The notes beneath the pieces were generated by a model. The model ran no database searches and had not been told where the DNA came from. It worked only from the letters and a program-made list of their open reading frames with translations. Made by a program: the position numbers and the translations under genes. A stretch of 64,000 nt of DNA, from IMG/VR virus record IMGVR_UViG_3300037466_001520; one strand, written 5' to 3'. The stretch's first letter is position 1. Each line of letters opens with the position of its first letter. Origin of the DNA: a virus. Its lineage: Duplodnaviria; Heunggongvirae; Uroviricota; Caudoviricetes. Below are positions 3,620 through 25,555 of the stretch, piece after piece.

Positions 3620-5756
3620 CGAAAGCCCCGTCACACTCAACGCGCAACTGAACCTATGGTCGGCGGACAGAAAAGTCCAGTTCGACAAGGACAAGGAAGC
3701 CGCTCGCCAATTCTTCTTGCAGGTTGTCAATGCGAAGACCCGCCACTTCTACAGCCTCGAAGAAAAGCTCGACTTCCTCTTCGAGAACGGCTACTACGAA
3801 AAGGCCGTCTGGGACCAGTACCCCTTCCGCGAGGTCAAGAAGCTTTACAAGAAGATCTACGACAAGAAGCACCGCTTCGAGTCGTACTTCTCTGCGTTCA
3901 AGTTCTACGACCAGTACGCCATGAAGTCCTTCGACGGCGAGATCTGGATGGAGCGCTACGAGGACCGCGTCGTCGCCAATGCCCTCTTGCTCGGACAGGG
4001 TGACGTCGAGAAGGCGAACTACATCGCCGAGGAGATCATCTCAGGCCGTCTCCAGCCTGCCACACCGACGTTCTCCAACGCCGGTAAGGTCGCTCGCGGC
4101 GAGTTCGTCTCCTGCTTCCTCCTCCGCATCGAGGACAGCATGGAGTCCATCGGGCGCGGCATCAACTCAGCGCTCCAGCTCTCCAAGCGAGGCGGAGGCG
4201 TGGCCCTGCTGCTCTCCAACATCCGCGAGGCCGGAGCGCCGATCAAGGGCATCCTCAACATGTCCTCGGGAATCATCCCCGTCATGAAGCTGCTGGAGGA
4301 CTCCTTCTCCTACGCCAACCAGCTCGGAACCCGTCAGGGCGCAGGCGCGGTTTATCTGAACGCCTTCCACCCGGACATCATGAAATTCCTTGACACCAAG
4401 CGCGAGAACGCCGACGAGAAGGTCCGCATCAAGACGCTCTCGACCGGTGTCGTCATCCCCGACATCCTCTTCGAGCTGGCGAAGAACAACGAGGAGATGT
4501 ATCTCTTCTCTCCGTACGACGTCCAGCGCGAGTACGGCGTCCCGTTCGCTGACATCTCGATCTCCGAGAAGTACCGCGAGATGGTCAACAACCCCCGCAT
4601 CAAGAAGACCAAGCCGAAGATCGACGGCGAGCGCACCATCAACGCGCGCGAGTTCTTCACCCAGCTCGCGGAGATCCAGTTCGAGTCCGGCTACCCGTAC
4701 TCGCTCTTCGAGGACAACGCCAACCGCGACCACGCTATCGCAGGCGGACGCATCAACATGTCCAACCTCTGCACGGAGATCTTGCAGGTCAACACCGCGT
4801 CGAAGTACAACAACGACCTCTCCTACTCCGAGGTCGGGCGCGACATCTCATGCAACCTCGCCTCGTTGAACGTGGCGAAGACCATGGAGGGCGGGAACCT
4901 CCGTCGTACGGTGGAGACCGCGATCAACGCGCTCACGACCGTCTCGGACATCTCGAACATGGACTCCGTCCCGTCCATCGTCAACGGCAACGACAAGTCG
5001 CACTCGGTCGGGCTCGGGCAGATGAACCTAGCCGGGTTCTTCATCAAGGAGGGCATGAAGTACGGCGACGAGAACTCGCTGAACTTCACGAACATCTACT
5101 TCATGACGGTGGCTTTCGAGGCTCTCCGCGCGTCGGCACGCATCGCCAAGCGCTACGGGAAGACCTTCGAGGGCTTCGAGGAGTCGAAGTACGCCGACCG
5201 CGCCTACCTCACGGAGAAGTACTCCAACCCGGAGCTGATCACTCCGAACGAGAACACTTCTGCAATTTTTGCAAAATACGGGATCCCGATCCCGACCGAG
5301 GACGACTGGGCGGGGCTCGCGTGCTTCATCGAGTGGCACGGCCTCTACAACGCCTACTTGCAGGCGATCCCGCCGACCGGCTCGATCTCCTACATCAACT
5401 ACTCGACGTCGTCGATCCACCCGGTCGCGGCAGCCGTCGAGGCCCGCAAGGAAGGCCGCTCAGGGCGCGTGTACTTCCCGCAGCCGTACGTGACCAACGA
5501 GAACTTCCATCTCGTGGAGGATGCGTATCAGGTCGGGTGGAAAAGGGTAATCGACGTCTACGCGGAAGCCACGAAGCACGTCGATCAGGGTCTCTCGTTG
5601 ACCTTGTTCTACGCCAACGACGCAACCACCAAGACGATCAACCAAGCCCAGATCTACGCATGGCGCAAGGGGATCAAGACGCTCTACTACGCCCGAGTCC
5701 GTCAGGACGACCTCAAGGGCACGGAGATGGAAGAGTGCGTGGCCTGCTCGCTCTGA
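3603..5756 (+). CDS. nrdE: ribonucleotide reductase class Ib alpha subunit
   Basis: 717 aa; catalytic-site NLCTEI and a C-terminal Cys pair; gene order nrdHIEF. Confidence 0.9.
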
Positions 5757-6788: not shown

Positions 6789-6818
6789 TTTGACAGTGTG
6801 AATCAAGTCGGATAGAAT
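6789..6818 (+). promoter_or_regulatory. promoter TTGACA-N18-TAGAAT
   Basis: Immediately after the nrdF stop and before hairpin 6831-6865. Confidence 0.45.
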
Positions 6819-6864
6819 TATGAATGTCAAGGGGGTCGACCTTGCTGATACCTCCTTCGGCCCC

Positions 6865-6893
6865 CTTGACACTCCTGATTTTTATGATATACT
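6865..6893 (+). promoter_or_regulatory. promoter CTTGAC-N17-TATACT driving the tRNA-Trp/Pro/Gly cluster
   Basis: 14 nt upstream of tRNA-Trp. Confidence 0.5.
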
Positions 6894-7095: not shown

Positions 7096-7197
7096 CGCTA
7101 GAGAAGTGTTGTTTGCAGTTACTTCATTTGACTCTTAATCAAAAGCGAACTCCCCGTGTTGGGAAATACTGCGAACGCTTTTTCTCTCTAGTTCTTT

Positions 7198-7268
7198 GCG
7201 TCTATGATGTAGTGGTAACATATCAGTCTTCCAAACTGAGTTCGCGGGTTCGAGTCCCGCTAGACGCT
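7198..7268 (+). tRNA. tRNA-Gly (TCC)
   Basis: Acceptor GCGTCTA/TAGACGC is perfect; anticodon loop CTTCCAA; T-arm GCGGG-TTCGAGT-CCCGC. Confidence 0.75.
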
Positions 7269-7397
7269 CTGGTCGCAGATGCGCTCGCTATCCGGTTACT
7301 TCATTCGGCGAAAAATCACCGGACGCGGTTATTTCTCTGCGGCCTTTATCATCCCCGCCCGGGGATGAAGTGACAAACGACGACAGGACAAACAGAC

Positions 7398-8960
7398 ATG
7401 GGTAAGTTCAACACGCCTACTCTCGCGAAGGCCCGCAACGGGTACTCGCCCCTCACAACTTCTTACACTCGCGCCATCAACCACAATGGCGGTGTCGGTG
7501 CGCTCCGTGACCCCAAGTCCGAGCTGTTCCTCACCATCGTCAACGAGTTCGGCGGCGAGAAGCTCTTCCACGAAAACTCGGCTCAGCGTCAGGCACGCCT
7601 CGCGAAGCTCATCCCTGAGGTCGCCGTGGCGGATCCTGCGTGGATCGAGAACCTCGTCGGCTGGCTCCGCAAGGAGTCCAACCTCCGCTCGGCACCGATC
7701 ATCCTCGCGCTGACCGCTGCCAAGGCGCTCAACGACGCCGGGTACGAGGGCGTCCGCAAGATCGTCTCCAACGCGATCCTGCGCGCCGACGAGCCGGGAG
7801 AGGCGCTCGCCTTCTGGTATGCCAACTACGGGCGCAAGCTTCCAATCGGAGTCAAGCGCGGAATCGCTGACGGCGTGGTCCGCACCTACAACGAGTACTC
7901 CCTCGGGAAGTACGACGGCGGAGACAACAAGGGGTTCAGCTTCGCTGACGTCATCAAGCTTGTCCACCCAACGCCCAAGGACGAGCGCCAGTCGGCGCTG
8001 TTCAAGTTCGCGATGGACCGTCGCCACGACTCCTCGGCGAAGCCTGCTGAGATCCTGAGCCAGCTCAACAAGCGCGTGGCGTTCCTTGCCCTCTCTACCT
8101 CGGAGAAGCGCGAGTTCGTCACGGGTCCTGAGGGTGCACAGCGCCTCAAGGACGCGGGGCTCACATGGGAGAACGTCGGATCGACTTCGGGCAAGGGAGG
8201 CCTCGACGCCAAGGCGTGGGAGGCTCTCATCCCGGGGCTCGGATACATGGCGCTCATCCGCAACCTCCGCAACTTCGAGGACGCGGGAGTCTCCGACGAG
8301 ATCCTCGACCTCGTCGCGAAGCGCCTTGCGGACCCGGAGGAGGTTGCACGCTCGCGTCAGCTCCCATTCCGCTTCCTCTCGGCGGCTCGTGCGATCCGCA
8401 GCTACCGCTTCGCGCACCCTCTTGAGCGCGCGCTGGATGCTTCGCTTGCGAATATCCCGTCGCTCAAGGGCCGTACGCTGGTGATGGTCGACCGCTCGCA
8501 GTCGATGGAGTGGTACCGTTCGGAGAACACGCAGATGACATGGGCGGACACCGCTGCCCTGTTCGGAACCGCGCTCTCCATGCGTGCGGAGAGCGCTGAC
8601 CTCGTCGCGTTCGGCTCGACGTCGGAGAAGGTCGACTTCCACAAGAGGGGCTCCGTGCTCAAGACTGTGGAGTCCTTCCAGAACCTCGGCGGGACCGAGA
8701 CCGCTGCGGCCATCGAGCAGCACCTTCGCGGCCACGACCGCGTCGTGCTTCTCACGGACGACCAGCACAACGGACGCTCGCCGTACGACGTGGTCCCTTC
8801 GAACACGCCGATCTACGTCTGGAACTTCGCCGGATACAAGTACGGCGCTGGGGTCTCCGGCCCGAACCGCATCTACATGGGCGGTCTCTCCGACCAGAGC
8901 TTCTCGACGATCCCGCTCATCGAGACGGGGCGCGACTCGAAGTGGCCTTGGGAGTCGTAA
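7398..8960 (+). CDS. Ro60-like (TROVE domain + C-terminal vWA/MIDAS) protein
   Basis: 520 aa; N-terminal TROVE-like region; C-terminal vWA with MIDAS motif DRSQS (TLVMVDRSQSM); followed by Y-RNA-like modules. Confidence 0.7.
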   Translation: MGKFNTPTLAKARNGYSPLTTSYTRAINHNGGVGALRDPKSELFLTIVNEFGGEKLFHENSAQRQARLAKLIPEVAVADPAWIENLVGWLRKESNLRSAPIILALTAAKALNDAGYEGVRKIVSNAILRADEPGEALAFWYANYGRKLPIGVKRGIADGVVRTYNEYSLGKYDGGDNKGFSFADVIKLVHPTPKDERQSALFKFAMDRRHDSSAKPAEILSQLNKRVAFLALSTSEKREFVTGPEGAQRLKDAGLTWENVGSTSGKGGLDAKAWEALIPGLGYMALIRNLRNFEDAGVSDEILDLVAKRLADPEEVARSRQLPFRFLSAARAIRSYRFAHPLERALDASLANIPSLKGRTLVMVDRSQSMEWYRSENTQMTWADTAALFGTALSMRAESADLVAFGSTSEKVDFHKRGSVLKTVESFQNLGGTETAAAIEQHLRGHDRVVLLTDDQHNGRSPYDVVPSNTPIYVWNFAGYKYGAGVSGPNRIYMGGLSDQSFSTIPLIETGRDSKWPWES

Positions 8961-8969
8961 GATACAAAG

Positions 8970-9008
8970 AGTTGACACCAGCTCTGGCTATGCTATACTG
9001 GTGTCAAC
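8970..9008 (+). promoter_or_regulatory. promoter TTGACA-N16-TATACT embedded in an inverted repeat (GTTGACAC...GTGTCAAC)
   Basis: The -35 element is part of the left arm and the -10 lies in the spacer; transcription would run into the YrlA-like/tRNA array. Confidence 0.5.
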
Positions 9009-9030
9009 ACGAAGTTGCTTGATAACTTAA

Positions 9031-9164
9031 CATGACCGAAGCGTAGAGGAAGCTTACTTCTTCTGGTAAAAGAGAGGTTGCGGGTTCGAGTCCCGTCCAG
9101 CCCACGGGTTGGTAGCTCAATCGGCAGAGCGCTATGTTAGCTTCTTCGATCTTTCTCGGTCATG
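9031..9164 (+). ncRNA. YrlA/Y-RNA-like module 1: circularly permuted tRNA-like core closed by a long terminal helix
   Basis: Order: T-arm (GCGGG-TTCGAGT-CCCGT, 9080-9096), then acceptor-like hairpin (CCAGCC/GGTTGG, 9097-9112), then D-arm (GCTC-AATCGGCA-GAGC, 9115-9130). The ends pair: CATGACCGA (9031-9039) with TCGGTCATG (9156-9164), plus a second helix GAGGAAGCT / AGCTTCTTC. Confidence 0.6.
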
Positions 9165-9169
9165 TTATT

Positions 9170-9244
9170 GCCTGCTTAGCTCAGTCCGGCCAGAGCATCT
9201 GTCTTGTAAACAGAGGGTCGTCGGTTCGAATCCGACAGCAGGCT
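9170..9244 (+). tRNA. tRNA-Thr (TGT)
   Basis: Acceptor GCCTGCT/AGCAGGC; anticodon loop CTTGTAA; T-arm GTCGG-TTCGAAT-CCGAC. Confidence 0.8.
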
Positions 9245-9245
9245 C

Positions 9246-9381
9246 GCGTTCAGAAGTGAAGAGATCCGTTACTTCTCCTTCCACGAGACAGGCGCAGGTT
9301 CGATTCCTGCACGCCCTTCCATGGGGCGTTGGTGTAATGGCAGCACGGTTATATACGGAACTCGACTTTTTCTCTGAACAC
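9246..9381 (+). ncRNA. YrlA/Y-RNA-like module 2 (permuted tRNA-like)
   Basis: T-arm GCAGG-TTCGATT-CCTGC (9294-9310); acceptor-like hairpin ACGCCCT-tccat-GGGGCGT (9311-9329, 3' strand followed by TCCA); D-arm GTGTAATGGCAGCAC. End helices GTTCAGA (9248-54) / TCTGAAC (9373-79) and GAG-A-TCCGT / ACGGA-A-CTC. Confidence 0.6.
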
Positions 9382-9384
9382 TCC

Positions 9385-9534
9385 GCTTCACGTGAAGCGT
9401 AGGTGCCGGATACTTCTGGGAGACTGTAGGTCGCAGGTTCGAGTCCTGCCCTCCCGCCTTTTCATGCGGGAGGTAGCTCAGTGGAAAGAGCGACAGTATA
9501 TTTGTTACCGGACCGATTTTTTCTCACGTGATTT
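9385..9534 (+). ncRNA. YrlA/Y-RNA-like module 3 (permuted tRNA-like)
   Basis: T-arm GCAGG-TTCGAGT-CCTGC (9433-49); acceptor-like 7-bp hairpin CCTCCCG-ccttttcatg-CGGGAGG (9450-9473); D-arm GCTC-AGTGGAAA-GAGC. 'Anticodon-stem' equivalent ACTGT (9423-27) / ACAGT (9493-97), then GGT(G)CCGG / CCGGACC, and outer CACGTG (9389-94) / CACGTG (9525-30). Confidence 0.6.
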
Positions 9535-9607
9535 GCCGCTCAAGCTCAGATGGAAGAGCGCCTGATTGAAGCTCAGGAGGCTGTCGGTTCGACCCCGACG
9601 AGTGGCA
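9535..9607 (+). tRNA. tRNA-Phe (GAA)
   Basis: D-arm GCTCAGATGGAAGAGC; anticodon loop TTGAAGC; T-arm GTCGG-TTCGACC-CCGAC. Confidence 0.75.
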
Positions 9608-9612
9608 CGCTT

Positions 9613-9683
9613 TGTCCCATAGTGTAACGGCAGCACGCAGCGCTTTGACCGCTGGCGACTAGGTTCGAATCCTAGTGGGACAG
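9613..9683 (+). tRNA. tRNA-Gln (TTG)
   Basis: U1-A72 acceptor TGTCCCA/TGGGACA; anticodon loop CTTTGAC; T-loop TTCGAAT. Confidence 0.7.
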
Positions 9684-9773: not shown

Positions 9774-9899
9774 CAATGCCGAGGAATGGAGTGCGCACTC
9801 CAAGTCCTCCCGTCCGGGGAAGTCCTAGGAACCTTCTCTAGACGGCGCGTGAGTGGAACCACCGCCAGTATGTCGAAGTCTGGGGGCGCGGCATTTTAA

Positions 9900-10451: not shown

Positions 10452-10519
10452 GCAGGCCCGTCACGCACTAACCATGCTAGGCAGTCGGAGTGGTTATCCG
10501 GCTAGCGGGAAGCTCATTT

Positions 10520-10605
10520 GGCTAGTAACCCTGCCCGGTGGTAGGCCACGCTTGGAAAGCGTGTGGCAGGCGAAGGTCTGTGAGGTTCGATTCCTCTGCT
10601 AGCCG
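10520..10605 (+). tRNA. tRNA-Ser (GGA), class II
   Basis: Anticodon stem-loop CACGC-TTGGAAA-GCGTG; long variable arm; T-loop TTCGATT; acceptor GGCTAGT/GCTAGCC. Confidence 0.7.
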
Positions 10606-10610
10606 CTTTT

Positions 10611-10696
10611 GGATAGTGACCCCTCCCGGTGGCGGGCCTCGTCTTGAAAACGAGTGGCGGGTGAAAGTCCGTTCGGTTCGACACCGACGCTATCCG
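10611..10696 (+). tRNA. tRNA-Ser (TGA), class II
   Basis: Anticodon stem-loop CTCGT-CTTGAAA-ACGAG; long variable arm; acceptor GGATAGT/GCTATCC. Confidence 0.7.
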
Positions 10697-10749
10697 CAGG
10701 GCCGGTGCATGTTGATCCGAGTGCAGCCGGAGCCGAAGTCCGGCAGGCC

Positions 10750-17659: not shown

Positions 17660-18355
17660 ATGAATCCTCTACTCACCGTCCCGCTCCTCGCACTCGATAC
17701 CGAGACGACCGGCGTCAACTCCTTCGAGGACCGCGTGGTCACGTGCTGCATGGTCTACGACAACGGTCAGGGAGACCAGCAGATCCGCAACTGGGTCATC
17801 GACCCGGGCATAGAGATTCCCGAGGGCGCGTCAGCGGTCCACGGAGTCACGACGGAGATCGCGCGAGCGACCGGCACCAGCCCCGTAGACGGCCTCGCGA
17901 GCATCGCGGCTAGTCTGATGCCCATGCTCGATGCCAAGATCCCTCTCGTTATATATAATGCCGCCTTCGACCTCACGCTGCTCAACAACGAGTTCGCTCG
18001 CCACGGGATCAACTTCCCATACGACTTCGACGAGCACATCGTCATCGACCCGTACGTCATCGACAAGGCCTTCAACCCGTACCGCAAGGGCAAGCGCATT
18101 CTGACGATGACCGCCTCGCTTTACGGTTACGAGCTGATCAACGCGCACAACGCGGAGGCCGACTGCCTCGCGGCCATCGGAGCATTCCGTGGGATGACAA
18201 CGGCCTATGACATCCAGTATTCTCTGGAGGAGCTTCACCAAAAACAGAAGATCTGGAAGTATCAGCAGGCCGAGGGTCTTGAGCAGCATTTCCGGAAGAC
18301 CGATCCGGAGAAGTGCGTCAACCGCGAGTGGCCGTACCAGACGGTTCCGGGATGA
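17660..18355 (+). CDS. DnaQ-like 3'-5' exonuclease (DEDD family)
   Basis: ALDTETTG Exo I motif, HNAEADC Exo III motif. Confidence 0.75.
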   Translation: MNPLLTVPLLALDTETTGVNSFEDRVVTCCMVYDNGQGDQQIRNWVIDPGIEIPEGASAVHGVTTEIARATGTSPVDGLASIAASLMPMLDAKIPLVIYNAAFDLTLLNNEFARHGINFPYDFDEHIVIDPYVIDKAFNPYRKGKRILTMTASLYGYELINAHNAEADCLAAIGAFRGMTTAYDIQYSLEELHQKQKIWKYQQAEGLEQHFRKTDPEKCVNREWPYQTVPG

Positions 18356-25479: not shown

Positions 25480-25555
25480 GCCTGCATAGCTCAGTCGGTA
25501 GAGTGTCACTATGGTAAAGTGAAGGTCCCGGGTTCGAATCCCGGTGTAGGCTCCA
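25480..25555 (+). tRNA. tRNA-Thr (GGT), CCA encoded
   Basis: D-arm GCTCAGTCGGTAGAGT; anticodon stem-loop TCACT-ATGGTAA-AGTGA; T-arm CCGGG-TTCGAAT-CCCGG. Confidence 0.75.

What the first reader, a model, noticed from the sequence alone, without database searches (positions are those of the whole stretch)
8970..9607. Three tandem circularly-permuted tRNA-like RNAs (Y-RNA/YrlA mimics) directly downstream of a Ro60 ortholog, interleaved with real tRNAs
Between the Ro60 stop (8960) and tRNA-Phe (9535) three elements do not fold as tRNAs in the normal order. Each has a canonical T-arm (GxxGG-TTCGAnT-CCxxC), immediately followed by a 6-7-bp hairpin whose two strands look exactly like a tRNA acceptor 3' strand and 5' strand (e.g. 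CCTCCCG ... CGGGAGG), then a canonical D-arm (GCTC...GAGC). This T-arm → acceptor hairpin → D-arm order is a tRNA opened at the anticodon loop and closed at the acceptor end. In every unit the sequences before the T-arm and after the D-arm base-pair over long range, for example ACTGT/ACAGT, GGT(G)CCGG/CCGGACC and CACGTG/CACGTG in unit 3. They form an extended, bulged helix where the anticodon stem would be. As I recall it, this is the architecture reported for bacterial Ro60-bound YrlA RNAs (a tRNA-like module plus a Ro-binding stem), and the genomic position next to a TROVE/vWA Ro60 gene fits. The 5' strand of unit 1 (GACCGAAGCGTAGAGGAAG) even resembles the conserved 5' end of metazoan Y RNAs (GGUCCGAAGGUAGUGA), although this is a from-memory comparison. 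Three copies in tandem, each with a different 'acceptor' hairpin, sharing a promoter and processing context with tRNA-Thr and tRNA-Phe, is unusual. It suggests these RNAs are matured by the tRNA-processing machinery (RNase P, RNase Z, CCA addition), and that the phage supplies both Ro and its RNA partners.
Basis: partly seen in the sequence, partly recalled or inferred. Interest (0 to 1): 0.85.

Follow-up and report, generated by a model that had tools for sequence, protein, structure and literature searches.

The report
Phage Y RNAs beside Ro60 gene

Summary
Between the Ro60 stop (8960) and tRNA-Phe (9535) lie three ~135-145-nt units, each with a T-arm, a 7-bp acceptor-like hairpin and a D-arm, enclosed by a long bulged stem.

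A covariance model built only from 54 units of other phages and bacteria finds them at 110, 99.5 and 98.9 bits. The next best window hit scores 29.6 bits and is an adjacent tRNA pair. Pairing is 97% across those 54 units, against 64% when shuffled.

The units occur next to Ro60 homologues in Arthrobacter, Streptomyces, Gordonia and Mycobacterium phages, about 25 IMG/VR contigs and actinobacterial genomes. They are absent from two syntenic Arthrobacter phages that lack Ro60.

They are YrlA-type Y RNAs. That family was described in 2014, including in 22 phages, and was later called "circularly permuted tRNAs" in print.

- Units 1 and 2 keep an intact anticodon-arm-like hairpin, so only unit 3 is "opened in the anticodon loop".
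- Two shorter Y-like RNAs (7097-7192, 7271-7344) lie upstream of Ro60.
- Arrays of this kind, set among tRNA genes, are usual in this phage lineage.

Rfam's YrlA model scores below its threshold here, as it does on other actinobacterial and actinophage loci. Function was not tested.

The parts
7398..8960 (+). Ro60 (Rsr) homologue, 520 aa
   Evidence: Pfam TROVE 7.3e-20 plus VWA_2. The closest solved structure is the Ro60 of Thermus phage phiLo, 9KOP/9L5Y, E 4e-25. It is 52.5% identical to the 'Ro-like RNA binding protein' of Arthrobacter phage Atuin.
8972..8999 (+). Sigma-70-like promoter, TTGACA-16-TATACT with a TG extension, directly upstream of unit 1
   Evidence: 11 of 12 consensus matches. 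The region has 7 such sites against 0.8 expected. TTGACA...TACAAT/TATAAT sits at the same place in Atuin and in L007. This is a consensus match only; use of the promoter is inferred.
9030..9165 (+). Y RNA unit 1 (YrlA type). Closing stem 9030-9039/9156-9165; GAAGCG 9038-9043; middle stem GAGGAAGC/GCTTCTTC; TTACTTC 9054-9060; anticodon-arm-like hairpin 9058-9074; T-arm 9080-9096; acceptor-like hairpin 9097-9112; D-arm 9115-9130
   Evidence: R2 110.2 bits. Rfam YrlA 40 bits. Fold z-score -3.8. After permutation ARAGORN reads it as tRNA-Thr(ggt).
9170..9245 (+). tRNA-Thr(UGU), a genuine tRNA between units 1 and 2
   Evidence: ARAGORN. Rfam tRNA 69.6 bits.
9248..9379 (+). Y RNA unit 2 (YrlA type). 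Closing stem 9248-9254/9373-9379; GAAGTG; TACTTC 9270-9275; anticodon-arm-like hairpin 9273-9289; T-arm 9294-9310; acceptor-like hairpin 9311-9329 with loop UCCAU; D-arm 9332-9346 (GTGT..GCAC)
   Evidence: R2 99.5 bits. No Rfam YrlA hit. Fold z-score -2.8. After permutation ARAGORN reads it as tRNA-Gly(tcc). Orthologues in Atuin and L007 carry compensatory changes.
9388..9530 (+). Y RNA unit 3 (YrlA type, split anticodon stem). Closing stem 9388-9395/9523-9530; GAAGCG; middle stem GGT(G)CCGG/CCGGACC; ACTGT 9423-9427 pairs with ACAGT 9493-9497; variable loop AGGTC 9428-9432; T-arm 9433-9449; acceptor-like hairpin 9450-9473; D-arm 9476-9491
   Evidence: R2 98.9 bits. Rfam YrlA 36.2 bits over the full model. 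Split stem 5/5 at tRNA spacing.
9535..9608 (+). tRNA-Phe(GAA), a genuine tRNA that follows unit 3 after 4 nt
   Evidence: ARAGORN. Rfam tRNA 59.7 bits.
7097..7192 (+). Short Y-like RNA A (YrlB-like, no tRNA module), between tRNA-Pro and tRNA-Gly. Closing stem GCTAGAGA/TCTCTAGT, GAAGTG, middle stem, TTACTTC, CTTTTTCTC
   Evidence: R1 32.1 bits, full-length model, E 2e-5 over the window. Stem-loop-stem fold with z-score -2.2. Motif spacing matches 19 other short units. R2 did not report it, so support is weaker than for units 1-3.
7271..7344 (+). Short Y-like RNA B (YrlB-like), between tRNA-Gly and the Ro60 start. Closing stem GGTCGCAGA/TCTGCGGCC, GATGCG, TTACTTC, TTATTTCTC
   Evidence: R1 21 bits. 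R2 22.3 bits, E 5e-4. Fold z-score -3.2. A similar element sits at the syntenic place in L007, 2366-2448.

Best explanation
The three elements, together with two shorter ones upstream of the gene, are phage-encoded bacterial-type Y RNA genes that partner the adjacent phage Ro60.

Each RNA has two modules.
- A Ro60-binding module. This is a 7-10-bp closing stem ending in G-C and A-U pairs, then an asymmetric internal loop carrying GA(A/U)G(C/U)G on the 5' side and a pyrimidine run on the 3' side, then an ~8-bp middle stem and a conserved UACUUC.
- An apical effector module. In units 1-3 it is a circularly permuted tRNA: T-arm, a 7-bp acceptor stem closed by a loop, U8-A9, D-arm and a variable loop. 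In the two short units it is a simple hairpin.

Inferred steps:
- The RNAs are made as one precursor with tRNA-Thr, tRNA-Phe and the downstream tRNAs, from the promoter at 8972-8999.
- They are released when the tRNA-processing nucleases cut out the flanking tRNAs.
- Ro60 binds the stem and loop module.
- The tRNA-like module recruits a host partner. The precedent is PNPase, giving a Ro60-Y RNA-PNPase decay machine. A tRNA-binding enzyme is the alternative.
- In this way the phage would redirect RNA surveillance or decay, possibly of tRNAs, during infection.

Shown here: the anatomy, its conservation and covariation, family membership, and co-occurrence with Ro60.

Inferred only: transcription, processing, Ro60 binding, the effector and the biological role.
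For: Family and structure:
- Rfam YrlA hits units 1 and 3.
- Model R2, built without the window or its four closest relatives, scores the units at 110, 99.5 and 98.9 bits over the full model. Other window sequence scores 29.6 bits or less.
- RNAalifold on nine units finds the closing stem, T-arm, acceptor-like hairpin and D-arm, with compensatory changes at 16 of 23 pairs.
- On 54 units, 97.2% of cells pair, against 64.4% shuffled and 36-48% with the partner slid. The covariation score is 0.84 against 0.20.
- Middle stem: cognate 8-mers pair 7.19 of 8 on average and 24 of 58 are perfect, against 2% perfect for non-cognate pairs.
- The acceptor-like stem is exactly 7 bp in 41 of 58 units, and U8-A9/G plus a D-arm follows in most of the well-paired units.
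- The tertiary-contact residues named for YrlA are present: GG in the D-loop, UUCRA in the T-loop, a pyrimidine ending the variable loop, and UA before the D-arm (sequence; criteria from bioRxiv 10.1101/312249).

Link to Ro60:
- The arrangement is the same in Arthrobacter phage Atuin and in IMG/VR contig L007.
- The syntenic phages Racecar and Mimi lack Ro60. They have tRNA-Gly, 73 nt (Racecar) or 49 nt (Mimi), tRNA-Thr, 4 nt, tRNA-Phe, with no unit.
- Nearly all IMG/VR loci with units carry a Ro60 homologue.
- Of 120 bacterial loci that match a loose motif, only 6 have units and all 6 carry Ro60. Seven of the 120 carry Ro60.

Precedent:
- YrlA lies next to Ro60 in 254 bacteria and 22 phages, and M. 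smegmatis YrlA, which has a 7-bp stem, is cut by RNase P and gains CCA (PMC4201824).
- D. radiodurans makes Yrn2, tRNA-Asp and Yrn1 as one precursor (same paper).
- Thermus phage phiLo Ro60 binds two phage Y-like RNAs and assembles with host PNPase in vitro (PMC12135203).
Against: - No expression, processing or binding data exist for this phage or any close relative.
- The Rfam YrlA scores (40 and 36 bits; none for unit 2) are below the curated threshold of 69.
- The published 5' motif GNCGAAN0-1G is matched only approximately in unit 1 (ACCGAAG) and not in units 2 and 3 (CAGAAG, GTGAAG).
- No PNPase, RtcB or other known partner gene turned up among the ten large ORFs scanned.
- Alignments A2 and A3 were fitted to the model, which inflates the pairing percentages somewhat.
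- Many IMG/VR loci were recruited with a motif that contains GAAGYG, TACTTC and GGTTCRA. Conservation of those words in that subset is therefore by construction. The loci recruited through the Ro60 protein are free of this bias, and they also carry GATGCG or GGAGCG with TTACTTC.
Confidence: 0.85

Rival explanations
1. The units are decaying remnants of duplicated or fused tRNA genes (tRNA dimers) in a fast-evolving phage tRNA array. On this view they are transcribed spacers with no function of their own.
For: Permuted units 1 and 2 read as clean tRNA cloverleaves. The 5' part of unit 1 gives a weak ordinary tRNA hit of 18.3 bits. Equivalent units in VanLee and GiJojo score 26.9 and 24.1 bits and were annotated as tRNAs. 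Adjacent tRNA pairs score up to 44 bits on the unit model. A dimeric-tRNA origin for YrlA has been proposed in print.
Against: The non-tRNA parts are conserved, and the stems covary, across phages whose Ro60 proteins are only 40-55% identical. These parts are the closing stem, GAAGYG, the middle stem and UACUUC. Short units keep exactly this module and have no tRNA part. The units disappear together with Ro60 in Racecar and Mimi. Adjacent tRNA pairs match only model positions ~32-132, never the full model. A tRNA-dimer origin is compatible with the units working as Y RNAs today.
Confidence: 0.05
2. The units are circularly permuted tRNA genes that mature into working tRNAs, either by circularisation and re-opening at the acceptor end as in Cyanidioschyzon, or as two-piece tRNAs. 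They would then add decoding capacity such as Thr-GGU and Gly-UCC.
For: Units 1 and 2 have a 7-bp acceptor stem, a D-arm, a 5-bp/7-nt anticodon-like arm with U33 and R37, a variable loop and a T-arm. The unit 2 acceptor loop reads U-CCA-U. The possibility that some YrlAs are processed further is raised in the literature.
Against: The relic 'anticodons' differ between orthologues. Unit 1 has GGU but L007 has UUC. Unit 2 has UCC but Atuin has GAU and L007 has UGC. The encoded CCA is not conserved. The window already has tRNA-Thr(GGU) at 25480 and tRNA-Gly(UCC) at 7198. Bacteria are not known to have the splicing endonuclease and ligase route this would need (stated). Unit 3 and 11 other units have no anticodon loop at all. 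The conserved Ro-type module and the co-occurrence with Ro60 would be left unexplained.
Confidence: 0.03
3. The elements are cis-acting processing or regulatory structures of the tRNA operon, such as nuclease entry sites, attenuators or stabilisers, and they act independently of Ro60.
For: They lie inside a tRNA array downstream of a strong promoter, with no terminator between. Other structured RNAs are found in phage tRNA clusters, for example a near-threshold manA RNA match in BRock.
Against: Racecar and Mimi have the same tRNA array and promoter context but lack every unit together with Ro60. In Streptomyces, Gordonia and Mycobacterium phages the units follow Ro60 rather than particular tRNAs. 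In McGee the unit lies next to Ro60 with no tRNA gene within 13 kb downstream.
Confidence: 0.05

Closest known systems
YrlA (Y RNA-like A; Rfam RF02553) of bacteria and phages: Chen et al. 2014, RNA 20:1715 (PMC4201824); structure in Wang et al. 2018 (bioRxiv 10.1101/312249, PDB 6CU1)
   Same: The units are encoded within a few hundred bases of a Ro60 gene on the same strand. The 5' and 3' ends pair into a bulged stem with a CGAA-like motif on the 5' strand. The apical domain runs T-arm, closed acceptor-like stem, UA, D-arm. The D-loop and T-loop contact residues are conserved. More than one copy per locus occurs. The family is already described as 'circularly permuted tRNAs' and has been found in 22 phages.
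   Different: These sequences are too diverged for Rfam's curated threshold (40, 36 and no hit, against 69). The lineage has its own invariant UACUUC and, in the Atuin-like clade, CUUUUUCUC. Units 1 and 2 carry a full anticodon-arm-like hairpin where S. Typhimurium YrlA has a short variable region. There are five units in one locus, on both sides of Ro60.
M. smegmatis YrlA and YrlB, and mycobacteriophage (cluster C) YrlA
   Same: Actinobacterial lineage. The acceptor-like stem is 7 bp, the feature that makes M. smegmatis YrlA an RNase P substrate which then gains CCA. A long tRNA-like RNA and a short hairpin RNA are processed from one precursor. The unit in mycobacteriophage McGee (L130 196-352) matches model R1 at 46 bits and carries GGUUACCUC.
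   Different: McGee has one copy, upstream of Ro60 and away from its tRNA genes. Cleavage and CCA addition are shown only for M. smegmatis.
Thermus phage phiLo Ro60 with Yrl1 and Yrl2 (NAR 2025, PMC12135203)
   Same: A phage supplies both Ro60 and its Y-like RNAs. This Ro60 is the closest solved relative of the window protein. It is the precedent for phage Ro60 plus Y RNA assembling with host PNPase.
   Different: As described, Yrl1 and Yrl2 are stem-bulge-stem RNAs lying upstream of the gene. No tRNA-like module or tRNA array is reported for them.
D. radiodurans Yrn1 and Yrn2
   Same: Y RNAs are made in one precursor together with a tRNA (Yrn2, tRNA-Asp, Yrn1), and several Y RNAs serve one Ro60.
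   Different: The order of the tRNA-like arms differs, and an independent origin has been proposed.
Circularly permuted tRNA genes of Cyanidioschyzon merolae and some archaea
   Same: The 3' half precedes the 5' half, the acceptor end is closed by a loop, and the ends pair.
   Different: Those RNAs mature into working tRNAs through a splicing endonuclease. Here the extended stem is a conserved Ro-type module and the anticodon relics are not conserved.

Membership tests
YrlA-type bacterial Y RNA | Encoded within 4 kb of a Ro60 (TROVE) gene, on the same strand | tested here: met
   Ro60 is at 7398-8960 (+). The units lie 70-570 nt downstream and 54-301 nt upstream, all on the + strand.
YrlA-type bacterial Y RNA | Significant match to the family covariance model (Rfam RF02553, gathering score 69 bits) | tested here: inconclusive
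   Unit 1 scores 40 bits (E 3e-7, model positions 24-84). Unit 3 scores 36.2 bits (E 3.5e-6, full model). Unit 2 gives no hit. All are below the gathering score. So are the McGee mycobacteriophage element (36.1 bits) and the elements beside Ro60 in Streptomyces and Pseudofrankia genomes (36-55 bits). The threshold is therefore not informative for this lineage.
YrlA-type bacterial Y RNA | Apical domain in the order T-arm, closed acceptor-like stem, UA, D-arm, with conserved D-loop GG, T-loop UUCRA and a pyrimidine ending the variable loop | tested here: met
   Read directly from the sequence. Also supported by the fold, covariation, a 7-bp stem in 41 of 58 units with UA/UG after most of them, and the permutation test. 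Unit 2 has UG instead of UA.
YrlA-type bacterial Y RNA | GNCGAAN0-1G motif near the 5' end (presumed Ro60 contact) | tested here: inconclusive
   Unit 1 has ACCGAAG, one mismatch. Unit 2 has CAGAAG and unit 3 has GTGAAG. What is invariant in this lineage is GA(A/U)G(C/U)G, and the base before it covaries as part of the closing stem.
YrlA-type bacterial Y RNA | 5' and 3' ends pair into a stem that links the tRNA-like domain to the Ro-binding region | tested here: met
   Closing stem of 8 pairs, all 8 with compensatory changes across 54 units and 93.7% of cells paired. Middle stem: cognate against non-cognate test.
YrlA-type bacterial Y RNA | Bound by the cognate Ro60 in vivo or in vitro | not testable with these tools
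   Needs RIP or EMSA. The only indirect evidence is co-occurrence with Ro60.
YrlA-type bacterial Y RNA | [quoted passage not shown] | not testable with these tools
   The 7-bp stem stacked on a 5-bp T-stem is present in all three units. Cleavage itself is an inference from M. smegmatis.
Metazoan Y RNA (Rfam RF00019) | Match to the Y_RNA model, with the conserved GGUCCGA/bulged-C helix | tested here: not met
   No Y_RNA hit at E<=10 in 8900-9650. Only CCGAAG..GUAG in unit 1 resembles the metazoan 5' end as recalled from memory.
Canonical tRNA | Cloverleaf in the standard 5'-to-3' order | tested here: not met
   ARAGORN finds nothing in the native units. The Rfam tRNA model gives at most 18.3 bits, against a gathering score of 29.

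The most novel reading that the evidence does not exclude
In this actinophage lineage the Y RNA array may be a set of tRNA decoys or surveillance adaptors built into the phage's own tRNA operon.

[quoted passage not shown] Units 1 and 2 also keep anticodon-arm-like loops. Held on Ro60, such RNAs could soak up host tRNA-targeting defence nucleases. Alternatively they could steer Ro60 and host PNPase towards damaged tRNAs, protecting translation during infection.

The retained anticodon arm of the upstream half and D-arm of the downstream half would also make these units living intermediates of the proposed tRNA-dimer origin of YrlA.
Probability: 0.1. Interest if true: 0.65.

Novelty: new member of a known kind. 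Interest (0 to 1): 0.3.

Why it matters
The result adds a diverged, unannotated set of Y RNA genes to a family whose function in phages is still unknown. Three points have practical value.

- Detection. Rfam's YrlA threshold misses the whole actinobacterial and actinophage branch. Public phage annotations either leave these RNAs blank or mislabel them as tRNAs or small ORFs.
- A natural experiment. Arthrobacter phage Atuin carries Ro60 plus the Y RNAs. The closely syntenic phages Racecar and Mimi carry neither. All three grow on the same laboratory host, so the question of what Ro60 and Y RNAs do for a phage can be tested directly.
- Evolution. The units that keep an intact anticodon arm bear on the published tRNA-dimer model for how these RNAs arose.

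None of this changes how the system is thought to work.

Tried and rejected
- Megablast of the locus against GenBank phages gave no match. Blastn matched only the tRNA-Thr in most phages, plus a 71% stretch in Atuin.
- Rfam at gathering thresholds reported only tRNAs.
- My first motif scan of IMG/VR (GAAGYG..TACTTC..GGTTCRA) was too loose. Most of its 119 loci were chance matches and had to be filtered with the covariance model. The same held for the bacterial genome scan, where 6 of 120 loci were real.
- Tblastn with the window Ro60 did not reach the cluster C mycobacteriophage Ro60. I fetched McGee through a genome announcement instead.
- The supplementary tables of Chen 2014, which list the phage YrlAs, are not held. 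Two reviews by Sim and Wolin could not be read.
- I considered an encoded CCA end in unit 2 and dropped it as a conserved feature. Only 3 of 58 units have NCCA, about what chance gives, and the orthologues lack it.
- I considered decoding function for the relic anticodons and dropped it because they differ between orthologues.
- Ten large ORFs of the window were scanned for partner enzymes such as PNPase, RtcB or a CCA-adding enzyme. None was found among them, and the rest of the window was not scanned.
- Short unit A (7097-7192) was not recovered by the independent model R2, so it rests on R1, its motifs and its fold.
Full report
**What is in the sequence**

The ORF at 7398-8960 (+) encodes a 520-aa protein with a TROVE domain (E 7e-20) and a vWA domain. 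Its closest solved relative is the Ro60 of Thermus phage phiLo (9KOP/9L5Y, E 4e-25). Its closest annotated relative is the "Ro-like RNA binding protein" of Arthrobacter phage Atuin, at 52.5% identity.

ARAGORN and Rfam agree on genuine tRNA-Thr(UGU) at 9170-9245 and tRNA-Phe(GAA) at 9535-9608. These are 2 of the 28 tRNA genes in the window.

Each has a canonical 5-bp/7-nt T-arm, followed immediately by a hairpin of 6-8 bp, then two bases (UA, UG, UA), then a 4-bp D-arm. All of this is enclosed by long-range pairing between the unit's ends. One detail differs: the unit 2 D-arm is GTGT...GCAC, the D-arm type of the window's own two tRNA-Gln genes, not GCTC...GAGC.

**Is it more than chance?**

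- RNAfold energies lie 2.8-3.8 sd below dinucleotide shuffles.
- ARAGORN finds no tRNA in the native units. I then cut each unit in the hairpin loop and joined the D-arm side to the T-arm side, dropping the long stem. Units 1 and 2 became clean cloverleaves, read as tRNA-Thr(ggt) and tRNA-Gly(tcc), with no added nucleotides. Unit 3 did so once a 7-nt loop was supplied.
- The strongest test was a covariance model (R2) built from 54 units of other phages and bacteria. It excluded the window and its four closest relatives. R2 scores the three units at 110.2, 99.5 and 98.9 bits over the full model. The best other hit in the 64-kb window scores 29.6 bits, matches only part of the model, and falls on an adjacent tRNA pair.

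**Comparative evidence**

Atuin (L001) and an IMG/VR contig (L007; Ro60 55% identical) share the window's gene order: RNR genes, tRNA-Trp, tRNA-Pro, tRNA-Gly, Ro60, unit, tRNA-Thr, units, tRNA-Phe, tRNA-Gln.

RNAalifold on nine units from the three phages recovers the closing stem, T-arm, acceptor-like hairpin and D-arm. Compensatory changes occur at 16 of 23 pairs.

Model R1, built from those nine, then found about 60 full-length units. They lie in Streptomyces, Gordonia and Mycobacterium phages, about 25 IMG/VR contigs and a few actinobacterial genomes.

On the 54-unit alignment, 97.2% of cells pair. The figure is 64.4% after shuffling and 36-48% when partners are slid by 1-3 columns. The covariation score is 0.84 against 0.20. 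The caveat is that this alignment was fitted to the model.

The covariance models do not encode the ~8-bp middle stem, so I tested it separately. The 8 bases before UACUUC pair with the best 8-mer in the same unit's 3' region 7.19 of 8 on average, and 24 of 58 are perfect. Against the 3' region of other units, 2% are perfect. There are 48 distinct 5' strands.

**Link to Ro60**

Arthrobacter phages Racecar and Mimi are syntenic with Atuin and the window but have no Ro60 gene. In them tRNA-Gly, tRNA-Thr and tRNA-Phe are separated by 73 nt (49 nt in Mimi) and 4 nt, and no full-length unit is found.

Nearly every IMG/VR locus with units has a Ro60 homologue beside them.

A loose motif scan of 185,579 species genomes returned 120 loci. 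The model accepted units in 6 of them, and all 6 carry Ro60. Ro60 is present in only 7 of the 120.

**Anatomy in more detail**

The Ro-side module is highly constrained. It consists of:
- a closing stem that ends in near-invariant G-C and A-U pairs
- GA(A/U)G(C/U)G
- 10-11 nt containing the middle-stem strand
- (U)UACUUC at a fixed offset
- on the 3' side, the other middle-stem strand and a pyrimidine run (CUUUUUCUC in the Atuin-like clade)

This module also occurs alone, capped by a plain hairpin, in 20 shorter elements.

Two of these shorter elements lie in the window upstream of Ro60. One is at 7097-7192, between tRNA-Pro and tRNA-Gly (R1 32.1 bits). The other is at 7271-7344, between tRNA-Gly and the Ro60 start (R1 21 bits, R2 22.3 bits). 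They correspond to the short "YrlB"-type partners described in Salmonella and M. smegmatis. The locus therefore holds five Y-like RNA genes, not three.

The tRNA-like module comes in two forms that never coincide.
- In 12 units, including unit 3, the five bases before a ~5-nt variable loop pair 5/5 with five bases that mostly start one base after the D-arm. The sequences differ between units (ACUGU/ACAGU, ACGCC/GGCGU, ACCGA/UCGGU).
- In 18 units, including unit 1 (unit 2 pairs 4/5), there is instead an intact hairpin of 5 bp with a 7-nt loop in front of the variable loop. Among the 39 units that form at least 4 of 5 pairs, the second loop base is U in 31 and the sixth is a purine in 33. This looks like a relic anticodon arm, and here the break lies between the D-arm and the anticodon arm.

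The relic anticodons are not conserved between orthologues. That argues against any decoding role.

The acceptor-like stem is exactly 7 bp in 41 of 58 units.

**Comparison with what is known**

All of the following is published:
- YrlA RNAs lie next to Ro60 in 254 bacteria and 22 phages. They have T, acceptor-like and D arms, several copies per locus are reported, and adjacent tRNA pairs are a known source of false positives (PMC4201824).
[quoted passage not shown] It also cites a dimeric-tRNA origin model.
- M. smegmatis YrlA, with a 7-bp stem, is cut by RNase P and gains CCA.
- D. radiodurans makes two Y RNAs and a tRNA from one precursor.
- A phage Ro60 has been shown to bind phage-encoded Y-like RNAs and to assemble with host PNPase (PMC12135203).

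Rfam's YrlA model scores units 1 and 3 at 40 and 36 bits, against a threshold of 69, and misses unit 2. It also gives only 36 bits for the element beside Ro60 in cluster C mycobacteriophage McGee. That is the phage group in which phage YrlAs were first reported. It gives 36-55 bits for the elements beside Ro60 in Streptomyces and Pseudofrankia genomes. The sub-threshold scores therefore reflect the model's reach, not a failure of membership. Rfam's metazoan Y_RNA model gives no hit.

**How it most likely works**

A strong sigma-70-like promoter sits 12 nt after the Ro60 stop (TTGACA-16-TATACT, 8972-8999; 11 of 12 matches). The same arrangement is seen in Atuin and L007, and no terminator-like site was found on the + strand before the following tRNAs.

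I infer the following steps. None was tested here.
- Unit 1, tRNA-Thr, unit 2, unit 3, tRNA-Phe and the downstream tRNAs are made as one precursor.
- The Y RNAs are freed when RNase P and the 3' processing enzymes cut out the tRNAs.
- Ro60 binds the closing-stem and GAAGYG module.
- The tRNA-like module recruits a host factor. PNPase is the one with precedent.
- The 7-bp acceptor-like stems may also be opened by RNase P.

**Verdict**

It is a new, diverged member of a known family.

Its main value is practical. It shows that Rfam's YrlA threshold does not detect this family in the actinobacterial lineage. It shows that these RNAs are unannotated or mislabelled in phage records. It also identifies a natural pair of Ro60-plus and Ro60-minus phages on one laboratory host. 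I score interest at 0.3.

Noticed in passing
window 8971-8981 and 8998-9008: A perfect 11-bp inverted repeat, GTTGACACCAG / CTGGTGTCAAC, brackets the -35 hexamer and overlaps the -10 hexamer of the promoter upstream of unit 1. It could be an operator, or a 3' hairpin of the Ro60 mRNA.
   Followed up: no
window 10519-10605: Rfam's tRNA-Sec model scores 51.4 bits here, but ARAGORN makes no call. It sits next to tRNA-Ser(tga) at 10611-10697. It is probably a second class-II (Ser-type) tRNA, since Atuin has Ser(tga) followed by Ser(gga) at the syntenic place.
   Followed up: no
L003 2704-2775 (Gordonia phage VanLee); L002 2769-2843 (Streptomyces phage GiJojo); L005 2745-2835 (Streptomyces phage Frankenweenie); L130 61-475 (Mycobacterium phage McGee): GenBank features overlie YrlA-like units found by model R1. 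These are tRNA-Arg(tct), tRNA-Arg(cct) and tRNA-Pro(tgg), of which the first two score below Rfam's tRNA threshold (26.9 and 24.1 against 29). In McGee, two small hypothetical ORFs (gp231, gp232) overlie the unit. All are likely mis-annotations.
   Followed up: partly
window 9318-9322: The acceptor-like loop of unit 2 reads U-CCA-U, which is a discriminator base plus an encoded CCA placed just before the 5' strand. It is not conserved in the Atuin or L007 orthologues. Only 3 of 58 units show NCCA, about what chance gives.
   Followed up: yes
window 6790-6818 and 6866-6893: Two further strong sigma-70-like promoters (11 of 12 matches each) lie upstream of tRNA-Trp, with a GC-rich hairpin at about 6828-6868 between them.
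   Followed up: no
window 9775-9899: A 125-nt spacer between tRNA-Gln(ctg) and tRNA-Ile has no match to the Y RNA models and no Rfam match at gathering thresholds. Its nature is unknown.
   Followed up: no
L004 5079-5242 (Streptomyces phage BRock): A near-threshold match to the manA RNA motif (49.7 bits; gathering score 55.2) lies between two tRNA-Lys genes downstream of Ro60 and overlaps an annotated 'collagen' ORF. The window has no such match.
   Followed up: no
window 17660-18355: An ORF with an RNase_T/DEDD exonuclease domain (E 5e-10) lies inside the tRNA-rich region. Whether it acts on RNA or DNA is unknown.
   Followed up: no
L001 4745-4824 (Arthrobacter phage Atuin): At the position of window unit 1, Atuin has only the Ro-side module capped by a plain loop, with no tRNA-like part. 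It also has a fourth, diverged unit before tRNA-Phe (5197-5334). Units are gained, lost and trimmed quickly within the clade.
   Followed up: partly
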